Positions 23,447 through 23,800 of a stretch of 64,000 bases of DNA are shown piece by piece; positions within the stretch are counted from its first letter, which is position 1; the number at the start of each line of letters is the position of its first letter. The DNA is from the human T2T-CHM13v2.0 reference genome, Homo sapiens. The notes under the pieces were generated by a model, which worked only from the letters and a program-made list of their open reading frames with translations, had not been told where the DNA came from and made no database searches. A program made the translations under genes and the position numbers. Location: assembly GCF_009914755.1 (NCBI RefSeq), contig NC_060930.1. One strand, written 5' to 3'.

Positions 23447-23800
23447 AGCTGGGCGCCGTGGCTCTGCCAGCAAAATTTCAATCGAAACACTGCAATGAGC
23501 CAGGCACTGTACCTCATGCCTGTAATCCCAGCACTTTGGGAGGCTGAGGCGGGTGGATCACGAGGTCAGGAGATTGAGACCATGCTGGCTAACACGGTGA
23601 AACCCCGTCTCTACTAAAAATACAAAAAATTAGCTGGGCGTGATGGCTCATGCCTGTAATCCCAGCTACTCGGGAAGCTGAGGCAGGAGAATGGCGTGAA
23701 CCCGGGAGGCGGAGCTTGCAGTGAGCCGAGATCGCGCCACTGCACTCCAGCCTGGGCAACAGAGCAAGACTCCGTCTCAAAAAATAAAAAATAAAAAAAG
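23447..23800 (+). mobile_element. AluY nested in tail/TSD of previous Alu, carrying a templated insert
   Basis: AluY diagnostics (GGCTAACACGG, AATGGCGTGAA, GAGCTTGC); TSD AAAGAAAGGTGA. Confidence 0.93.

What the first reader, a model, noticed from the sequence alone, without database searches (positions are those of the whole stretch)
23461..23544. Inverted 84-bp templated insertion copied from an inverted-Alu spacer 8 kb away into the 5' end of an AluY
Seen: 23461-23544 (GCTCTGCCAGCAAAATTTCAATCGAAACACTGCAATGAGCCAGGCACTGTACCTCATGCC...) is the reverse complement of 31700-31783 with only 2 mismatches. It includes the unique 29-bp spacer between the head-to-head Alus at 31746/31776 and the private CTGTACCTC variant of the 31453 Alu. 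The copy starts with an antisense piece of the 31776 AluY 5' end, so the 31.7 kb site must be the donor. Entry is at a GCTC microhomology after the recipient's own first ~14 nt; exit is within shared Alu homology back into AluY-type sequence. The recipient AluY keeps direct TSDs on both sides (AAAGAAAGGTGA at 23436 and 23797), which argues against an inversion of the intervening 8 kb. Inference: a double template switch (FoSTeS/MMBIR-like repair, non-allelic gene conversion, or a switch during Alu integration), possibly favoured by the donor extruding as a hairpin with the spacer exposed in the loop.
Basis: partly seen in the sequence, partly recalled or inferred. Interest (0 to 1): 0.8.

Follow-up and report, generated by a model that had tools for sequence, protein, structure and literature searches.

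The report
Alu-primed copy of neighbouring flank DNA
An 84-base piece of DNA lying next to one Alu repeat was copied, backwards, into another Alu 8 kb away in a JARID2 intron; it is a real, neutral scar of error-prone DNA copying, and the donor itself carries a second scar of the same kind.

Summary
23461-23544 is the reverse complement of 31700-31783 (82/84). The 34-nt non-Alu core occurs only at these two places in the whole T2T genome, and the donor Alu's private 24-mer is exact only there. The recipient is an AluY-type element with perfect 15-nt target-site duplications, so there was no inversion. The left junction is a 4-nt microhomology (GCTC). The right junction lies inside shared Alu sequence (23518-23572).

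Direction is now independently fixed. The first 15 nt of the "spacer" are the target-site duplication of the donor Alu, so the spacer is native to 31.7 kb.

The donor Alu is itself a composite of the same build. It holds 147 nt of unique flank plus Alu sequence copied from a third locus 35.5 kb downstream, inside intact duplications.

Best reading (0.55): after insertion, a break or stalled fork in the AluY used the nearby diverged Alu as template, ran off its end into unique DNA, and rejoined by microhomology. The main rival (0.25) is the same excursion during Alu integration. Ape orthologues, which I could not reach, would decide. It is a new member of a known kind and of moderate interest.

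The parts
23436..23450 (+). Left target-site duplication of the recipient AluY (AAAGAAAGGTGAGCT)
   Evidence: Exact 15-nt direct repeat with 23797-23811
23451..23464 (+). The recipient's own Alu 5' stub (14 nt). Its last 4 nt, GCTC (23461-23464), are the microhomology shared with the donor.
   Evidence: The 17-mer spanning it is an ordinary recurrent Alu 5' variant, with 537 genome matches.
23461..23544 (+). The inverted templated copy. 23461-23469 is the reverse complement of 31775-31783. 23470-23498 is the spacer copy. 23499-23544 is the copy of the donor Alu's 5' end with its private variants. The last donor-specific marker is at 23517. The tract could extend to 23572.
   Evidence: 82/84 identity. 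Genome-wide uniqueness.
23545..23796 (+). Remainder of the recipient: AluY-type body and A-tail
   Evidence: Y-type states from 23573 on, in the alignment of 33 window Alus
23797..23811 (+). Right target-site duplication of the recipient
31700..31783 (-). Donor segment. It comprises the 5' end of the antisense AluS-type element (31700-31745), the 29-nt spacer (31746-31774) and 9 nt at the start of the + strand AluY (31775-31783).
31223..31237 (+). Left target-site duplication of the donor Alu block (TCAGTGCAGTGTTTC)
   Evidence: 15-nt repeat, 1 mismatch, with 31746-31760. The pattern has only 3 matches in the window, the third being inside the recipient copy.
31238..31305 (-). T-rich tail plus about 47 nt of an Alu 3' end. 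This is the original 3' stub of the donor Alu block.
   Evidence: Aligns to Alu 3' end columns
31306..31452 (+). 147 nt of unique flank copied from locus B (window-continued coordinates 66840-66986, chr6:15194840-15194986, outside the window)
   Evidence: 141/147 identical. Present at only these two places in the genome.
31453..31745 (-). Antisense AluS-type element with T-tail. At least its right monomer is derived from locus B. It is the homologous template for the 23.46 kb copy.
   Evidence: rare shared derived states at alignment columns 127, 297 and 313
31746..31774 (+). The 29-nt spacer. Its first 15 nt (31746-31760) are the right target-site duplication of the donor block. The remaining 14 nt are native DNA.
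31775..32065 (+). AluY-type element forming the other arm of the head-to-head Alu pair. No recognisable target-site duplication was found.

Best explanation
After the AluY at 23.45 kb had inserted normally, a double-strand break or stalled fork arose within about its first 20-60 nt.

The Alu-bearing end paired with the diverged, oppositely oriented Alu 8.2 kb away at 31.7 kb and was extended on it. Because the other broken end kept only a 14-nt Alu stub, and the donor differs from that stub at 4 of its 14 positions, normal annealing could not end the copying. Synthesis therefore ran off the donor Alu's 5' end. It continued through the 29-nt native spacer and 9 nt further. The strand was then joined back to the stub at a 4-nt microhomology (GCTC).

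Read in the other direction, this is the same as a replicative template switch: out by microhomology, back by Alu homology. The sequence cannot tell the two apart.

What is shown: the copy, its donor, the direction of copying, the two junction types and the intact duplications. What is inferred: the timing (after insertion), the initiating lesion and the enzymes.
For: Copy and uniqueness:
- 82/84 identity.
- The non-Alu core is at only 2 genome sites.
- The private Alu 24-mer is exact at only these 2 of 41 near-matches.

Direction:
- The spacer's first 15 nt are the donor block's own target-site duplication.
- In the recipient the same sequence sits inside an Alu bounded by exact 15-nt duplications.

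Junctions:
- The left overlap is GCTC, 4 nt. Overlaps of 4 nt or more arise by chance at 1.6% (analytic) or 2.0% (200,000 random window junctions).
- The right junction lies in shared Alu sequence between 23518 and 23572.

Local DNA template:
- The donor lies 8.2 kb away. This is within the roughly 10 kb range reported for Alu-Alu conversion (PMC8230782, passages citing Aleshin and Zhi 2010). It also fits the exponential fall of conversion rate with distance (bioRxiv 10.1101/241356, passages).

Mechanistic precedent:
- Homologous repair that runs into sequence lacking homology to the second end terminates by microhomology-mediated joining and template switching in mammalian cells (PMC5104497, abstract).

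A second event of the same architecture at the donor:
- From left to right it reads: duplication, Alu 3' stub, 147 nt of unique flank from a locus 35.5 kb away plus Alu, duplication.
- That flank too is present only twice in the genome.
Against: - Timing is not shown. The copy's divergence (2/84, one at a CpG) is too small a sample to date against the AluY body.
[quoted passage not shown] The same product could therefore arise during integration.
- Both composite Alus keep both termini and perfect duplications. An excursion during integration predicts this as well.
- No orthologous primate sequence or population data could be examined. The tool states that the genome held has no relatives.
- The stub-mismatch rationale for the run-off is my inference.
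Confidence: 0.55

Rival explanations
1. The excursion happened during integration. While the AluY was being reverse-transcribed at its target, the growing first strand left the RNA inside the left monomer. It paired with the nearby Alu DNA at 31.7 kb and copied through its 5' end and the spacer. It then returned by the GCTC microhomology to finish the last 14 nt of the Alu RNA. The AluY would never have existed without the insert.
For: - The recipient is a textbook insertion with a 15-nt duplication and an A-tail, and both Alu termini are intact.
- The donor block has the mirror-image architecture, also inside intact duplications.
Against: - It requires a return to the same RNA 14-18 nt from its end after an excursion onto DNA. 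That is one more step than break repair needs.
- In the cited experiments the extra sequence was attributed to processing of the reciprocal DNA end at the junction, not to an insert lying inside the retrocopy.
- Nothing in the sequence requires this timing.
Confidence: 0.25
2. An RNA-templated chimeric retrocopy. L1 reverse transcriptase jumped from the AluY RNA to a minus-strand transcript covering the 31.7 kb spacer and Alu, then to a third Alu RNA 5' end.
For: - Template-switch chimeras flanked by duplications are a known product of L1 reverse transcription (search listing only: PMC4476161, bioRxiv 10.1101/2025.02.02.635956).
- For the donor block, the copied flank ends about 25-30 nt before the first run of four T's downstream of locus B's Alu. 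That is roughly where a polymerase III read-through transcript would end (read).
Against: - The copy includes 38 nt upstream of the donor Alu's 5' end, which an Alu polymerase III transcript would not contain.
- It needs three templates.
- RNA donors could lie anywhere in 3.1 Gb, yet the two events have donors 8.2 kb and 35.5 kb away.
- The donor Alu's 5' 24-mer is 3 mismatches from locus B, but 1 mismatch from a recurrent variant seen 24 times. This argues that only part of that Alu came from B.
Confidence: 0.07
3. An inversion of the intervening 8 kb, with staggered breaks leaving inverted duplications at both ends.
For: The two copies are inverted and would flank the putative inverted segment.
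Against: - The recipient's two 15-nt duplications lie in direct orientation. One is outside and one inside the putative inverted segment (23436-23450 and 23797-23811). Undoing an inversion would separate and invert them.
- Undoing it would also leave the odd stub/spacer junction unexplained.
Confidence: 0.02
4. An assembly artefact or a chance resemblance.
For: None was found. Read-level data were not available.
Against: - The copies differ at 2 positions and sit in different, internally consistent contexts.
- Chance expectation for the spacer alone is 0.00 in 100 shuffles, and 0 in the reversed-pattern genome control.
Confidence: 0.02

Closest known systems
Interlocus (non-allelic) Alu-Alu gene conversion
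   Same: Donor-specific variants are transferred between two Alus a few kb apart. The recipient's flanks and duplications are untouched. The tract size is typical: a mean of 118 bp is reported in bioRxiv 10.1101/241356 (passages). The roughly 10 kb range comes from PMC8230782 (passages).
   Different: The tract does not stay within the Alu. It leaves the donor's 5' end, carries 38 nt of non-homologous DNA, and ends at a microhomology, so the net result is an insertion. Published scans align Alu positions only (methods passages of both papers) and would not register this. In that preprint, position 20 of the Alu lies in only 5% of tracts.
[quoted passage not shown]
   Same: One end is resolved in homology. 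Copying continues into sequence with no homology to the second end. Rejoining uses a short microhomology (PMC5104497, abstract).
   Different: That work used a reporter with the sister chromatid as donor in cultured cells. Here the donor is an ectopic, inverted Alu of about 85-90% identity, and the product is fixed in the germline.
FoSTeS/MMBIR and Alu-mediated template switching in genomic disorders
   Same: Microhomology at a junction, a nearby template in either orientation, and Alus at breakpoints (search listings and abstract openings of PMC6258378, PMC6902434, PMC11293582).
   Different: Those events are copy-number changes of kb to Mb. This one is an 84-nt patch with no other rearrangement.
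L1-mediated insertions carrying DNA templated from near the integration site
   Same: A retroelement insertion with duplications that contains extra sequence copied from nearby genomic DNA (PMC11702581, passages; 3 cases).
   Different: Those cases were attributed to processing of the reciprocal end at the junction. Here a 14-nt Alu stub separates the insert from the duplication.
Templated sequence insertion polymorphisms, class 2
   Same: A short patch templated from elsewhere is inserted at a presumed break (PMC5110952, abstract).
   Different: Those patches are described as coming from distant regions and inserting seemingly at random. Here the donor is 8.2 kb away and homology guides one junction.
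Short-range template switches (Loytynoja and Goldman four-point model)
   Same: An inverted copy of nearby sequence replaces local sequence in one event (PMC5453318, PMC7954356; listing and abstract openings only).
   Different: Those are described as short-range. I recall tens to hundreds of bases, but I did not read that here. This switch spans 8.2 kb and is anchored by repeat homology.

Membership tests
Interlocus Alu-Alu gene conversion | Donor-specific variants present in the recipient Alu | tested here: met
   The private 24-mer is exact at only these 2 of 41 genome near-matches. Markers lie at 23506-23517.
Interlocus Alu-Alu gene conversion | Recipient's insertion site and target-site duplications unchanged | tested here: met
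   Exact 15-nt duplications
Interlocus Alu-Alu gene conversion | Tract bounded by homology on both sides, with no net gain of non-homologous DNA | tested here: not met
   The left junction is a 4-nt microhomology, and 38 nt of non-Alu DNA were gained.
Non-canonical HR termination / templated insertion by microhomology joining | One junction lies in extended homology | tested here: met
   The right junction lies within 23518-23572, inside shared Alu sequence.
Non-canonical HR termination / templated insertion by microhomology joining | The other junction shows microhomology or added nucleotides | tested here: met
   GCTC overlap. The chance of 4 nt or more is 1.6-2.0%.
Non-canonical HR termination / templated insertion by microhomology joining | Initiated by a double-strand break in a pre-existing recipient | not testable with these tools
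   This needs orthologous loci with the AluY but without the insert. No primate genomes are held (one search states that the genome has no relatives here).
FoSTeS/MMBIR | Replicative origin (fork stalling or collapse) | not testable with these tools
   The sequence is symmetric with respect to the repair and replication readings.
L1 template-switch chimeric retrocopy (RNA-RNA) | Whole element bounded by duplications with a 3' A-tail | tested here: met
L1 template-switch chimeric retrocopy (RNA-RNA) | Each part is a copy of a cellular RNA | tested here: inconclusive
   The insert begins 38 nt upstream of the donor Alu's 5' end. No transcript data were available.
Inversion with staggered breaks | Undoing the inversion restores a simpler ancestral arrangement | tested here: not met
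   Undoing it would split and invert the recipient's direct duplications.

The most novel reading that the evidence does not exclude
Alus may act as landing pads for a recurrent, so far uncounted process that copies the unique DNA beside one Alu into another Alu tens of kb away.

The process would use homology on one side and microhomology on the other. It can chain from locus to locus, as here: locus B to the 31.7 kb block to the 23.46 kb AluY.

In the 314 kb I could scan, 2 of 150 Alu blocks carry such an insert. If anything like that rate held genome-wide, there would be thousands of these micro-duplications. Conversion scans that align only Alu positions would miss them. Closely spaced inverted Alu pairs might be hotspots.
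Probability: 0.2. Interest if true: 0.6.

Novelty: new member of a known kind. Interest (0 to 1): 0.35.

Why it matters
The event has no evident functional effect. It lies deep in a JARID2 intron, and no exon or listed element overlaps it in the table supplied with the finding.

Its value is as a clean, fully resolved natural example of repair between diverged repeats that starts in homology and ends by microhomology, moving unique DNA into a repeat. Three loci are linked in a chain here, so the same short region records the process twice.

If such run-off copies are common, three things follow:
- They would inflate the apparent divergence of Alus.
- They would create small inverted or direct duplications that can seed later rearrangement.
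- Current Alu-conversion surveys would miss them.

The ape T2T assemblies make the timing question directly answerable.

Tried and rejected
- **Dispersed-repeat explanation.** Rejected. The spacer core and the event-2 flank each occur only twice in the genome.

- **A third template for the recipient's 14-nt stub.** The same 17-mer occurs in an old Alu monomer 51.8 kb upstream, but it has 537 genome matches. It is an ordinary variant, so no third template is inferred.

- **A second conversion patch in the recipient's right monomer.** At about 23649-23663, left-monomer-like letters are absent from the other 32 window Alus. However, the motif has 534 genome matches against 36,996 for the usual form, about 1.4%. 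It is a recurrent variant with no demonstrable link to the event.

- **Target-site duplications for the two donor-side Alus taken singly.** None was convincing. The duplication appeared only once the composite block was recognised.

- **Dating the event against the AluY body.** The tract has only 2 differences and 2 CpG sites, which is too few to separate the timings.

- **Boundary of the B-derived tract inside the donor Alu.** Rare shared states lie at alignment columns 17, 127, 297 and 313. The right monomer is clearly B-derived. The left monomer is ambiguous.

- **Third scan hit** (window-continued coordinates -30290..-30134 versus -28413..-28257, 93%). Its left neighbour is only weakly Alu-like, scoring 14 against 31 for the event-2 stub. 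It is left unclassified.

- **Literature.** Searches surfaced no description of Alu conversion tracts that run off into unique flank. That is five keyword searches of an open-access library, not proof of absence.

Full report
**1. The observation**

The recipient region reads as follows:
- a 15-nt duplication, AAAGAAAGGTGAGCT (23436-23450);
- a 14-nt Alu 5' stub (23451-23464);
- an 84-nt stretch (23461-23544) that overlaps the stub by 4 nt (GCTC), followed by an Alu body and A-tail up to 23796;
- the same 15-nt duplication again (23797-23811).

The 84 nt are the reverse complement of 31700-31783 at 82 of 84 positions. The differences are at 23481 and at 23502, the latter at a CpG. An independent repeat search returns the pair as arms 23461-23628 / 31616-31783 (I5). 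Beyond the 84 nt this is only ordinary Alu similarity.

**2. The match is not chance and the spacer is not a dispersed repeat**

- The 29-nt spacer has 2 matches in the window at up to 3 mismatches, against 0.00 expected in 100 shuffles.
- Across the 3.1-Gb genome, the 34-nt non-Alu core has one forward and one reverse match at up to 3 mismatches. The reversed control has none.
- A 72-nt query finds only the two loci.
- The 24-mer holding the donor Alu's private variant cluster has 41 genome matches at up to 1 mismatch. Only the two loci are exact.

**3. What the elements are**

I aligned 33 Alu copies from the window: 32 others plus the recipient.
- The recipient carries the states of the window's AluY-type copies from 23573 onward.
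- The element at 31453-31745 (minus strand) carries the AluS-type states.
- So the recipient is a mosaic: its own stub, then donor-derived sequence, then a Y-type body.

The last donor-specific marker is at 23517. The first discordant site is at 23545-23546, where each copy shows a different CpG decay product. The first subfamily-diagnostic difference is at 23573. The homologous junction therefore lies between 23518 and 23572, most simply before 23545.

**4. Direction of copying**

The pilot scan (section 7) showed that the block 31238-31745 is bounded by a 15-nt direct repeat, TCA[G/T]TGCAGTGTTTC, at 31223-31237 and 31746-31760.
- That pattern has only three matches in the window. The third is the reverse-strand copy inside the recipient at 23484-23498.
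- So the first half of the "spacer" is the target-site duplication of the donor Alu block. The spacer is native DNA of the 31.7 kb site.
- At 23.46 kb the same letters sit inside an Alu that has its own intact duplications.
- The 31.7 kb site is therefore the donor. Those 9 nt deviate from other Alus and may not all be Alu-derived.

**5. Inversion and artefact**

The recipient's two duplications are in direct orientation. One lies outside and one inside the segment that an inversion would have flipped. An inversion with staggered breaks is therefore excluded.

The two copies differ at two positions and sit in different, self-consistent contexts. This argues against an assembly chimera. I had no reads to test this directly.

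**6. Junctions and mechanism**

The left junction has a 4-nt overlap. Overlaps of 4 nt or more arise at 1.6% of random junctions analytically, and at 2.0% of 200,000 random junctions drawn from this window. The right junction lies in Alu homology.

[quoted passage not shown] Read in the opposite direction, it is the signature of a replicative template switch.

The distance fits published work on Alu-Alu conversion. That work reports a range of about 10 kb (PMC8230782, passages citing Aleshin and Zhi 2010), a rate that falls exponentially with distance, and a mean tract of 118 bp (bioRxiv 10.1101/241356, passages).

My inference for why copying ran off the end:
- The left broken end kept only a 14-nt Alu stub.
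- The donor differs from that stub at 4 of 14 positions, because of the donor's private variant cluster.
- Ordinary annealing was therefore not available until the GCTC was reached.

The donor pair of head-to-head Alus folds as a long hairpin (-259.5 kcal/mol; 20 shuffles averaged -93.3; z = -29). The landing site 31780-31783 lies in the 59-nt centre between the well-paired arms (I20).

**7. A second event at the donor**

I joined the window to 200 kb downstream and 50 kb upstream. I then searched with strict scoring for duplicates within 60 kb that span an Alu boundary in both copies.

In 314 kb, holding 150 Alu blocks of 200 nt or more and 5,133 non-self HSPs, four pairs passed:
1. the finding itself (23461-23572 versus 31783-31672, 95.5%);
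2. 31305-31654 versus window-continued 66839-67201;
3. a tandem duplication inside an Alu array (28269-28681 versus 28630-29045);
4. an unclassified 157-164-nt direct duplicate 1.9 kb apart, upstream of the window.

Pair 2 is the notable one.
- The 147 nt at 31306-31452 are 141/147 identical to the flank of an Alu at locus B, 35.5 kb downstream, with the same flank/Alu junction.
- This flank exists only at these two places in the genome.
- Locus B's Alu has its own 8-nt duplication (TGGAAGAA) on both sides, so B is the original.
- At the 31.7 kb site, the B-derived flank is preceded by a T-rich tail and about 47 nt of an Alu 3' end (31238-31305).
- The whole block lies inside the 15-nt duplication described in section 4.
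- Rare derived states shared by the two Alus (present in 0-1 of 31 other Alus) lie at alignment columns 127, 297 and 313 and also at column 17.
- The right monomer is therefore B-derived.
- The left monomer is ambiguous. Its 5' 24-mer is 3 mismatches from B, but 1 mismatch from a variant seen 24 times among the 39 one-mismatch hits.

The architecture is duplication | Alu end stub | foreign unique flank plus Alu | duplication. This is the mirror image of the finding. The donor of the 84-nt copy is thus itself a recipient of the same kind of event.

**8. Timing and rivals**

I cannot separate post-insertion repair from an excursion during integration.
- The tract has only 2 differences, so it cannot be dated against the AluY body.
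[quoted passage not shown] This keeps the co-integration rival alive at about 0.25.
- I favour post-insertion repair (0.55). It needs no return to an RNA template. It is also the natural by-product of documented Alu-Alu conversion when the break lies close to an Alu end.
- A purely RNA-templated chimera is unlikely (0.07). The insert starts 38 nt upstream of the donor Alu. Both events also have donors within 36 kb in a 3.1-Gb genome.

**9. Comparison with what is known, and novelty**

The event works like an interlocus Alu conversion but fails one defining feature of that family: the tract is not bounded by homology on both sides. It meets the testable features of non-canonical termination of homologous repair and of microhomology-mediated template switching.

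Published Alu-conversion scans align Alu positions only (methods passages of PMC8230782 and 10.1101/241356), so they would not register such run-off tracts. Five literature searches surfaced no description of them. That is not proof of absence.

I rate this as a new member of a known kind, of moderate interest. The bolder reading is a common, chainable, uncounted class. It rests on 2 linked cases in 314 kb and needs the genome-wide scan and the ape orthologues.

Noticed in passing
31223-31760 (partner: window-continued coordinates 66836-67286 = chr6:15194836-15195286, locus L013): The donor Alu block is a composite. Inside a 15-nt target-site duplication lie an Alu 3' stub, 147 nt of unique flank (141/147 identical), and Alu sequence copied from a locus 35.5 kb downstream. 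That locus has its own 8-nt duplication. The architecture is the same as in the finding, in mirror image.
   Followed up: yes
23649-23663: The recipient's right monomer carries a cluster of left-monomer-like letters that is absent from the other 32 window Alus. The motif has 534 genome matches, against 36,996 for the usual form, so it is a recurrent variant. No link to the main event could be shown.
   Followed up: yes
27837-29190: A tandem array of 3.7 units of 364 nt, each an antisense Alu plus spacer, with 83% matches. It points to tandem duplication of an Alu-containing unit.
   Followed up: partly
38255-38463 and 39113-39321: A 209-nt non-Alu direct repeat at 90% identity, 0.65 kb apart. 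It was not classified.
   Followed up: no
9471-9546 and 9544-9619: An adjacent 76-nt direct repeat at 92% identity. It lies just before the first annotated enhancer stretch (9910-10419) listed in the table supplied with the finding.
   Followed up: no
L034-L035, window-continued coordinates -30297..-30134 and -28419..-28257: A 164-nt direct duplicate (92-93% identity), 1.9 kb apart. It comprises about 105 nt of unique DNA plus the first ~60 nt of an old Alu-like monomer. In one copy it is wedged between antisense Alus. It might be a third event of the same kind, but the neighbouring stub is only weakly Alu-like.
   Followed up: partly
31775-32065: The + strand AluY of the head-to-head pair has no recognisable target-site duplication. 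Its first ~10 nt deviate from other Alus: most window Alus align to it only from position 7-12.
   Followed up: partly
23461-23466 and 23809-23814: The hexamer GCTCTG at the left edge of the copy also spans the end of the recipient's right target-site duplication and the native flank. It is probably a coincidence, but it could matter for a co-integration model.
   Followed up: no
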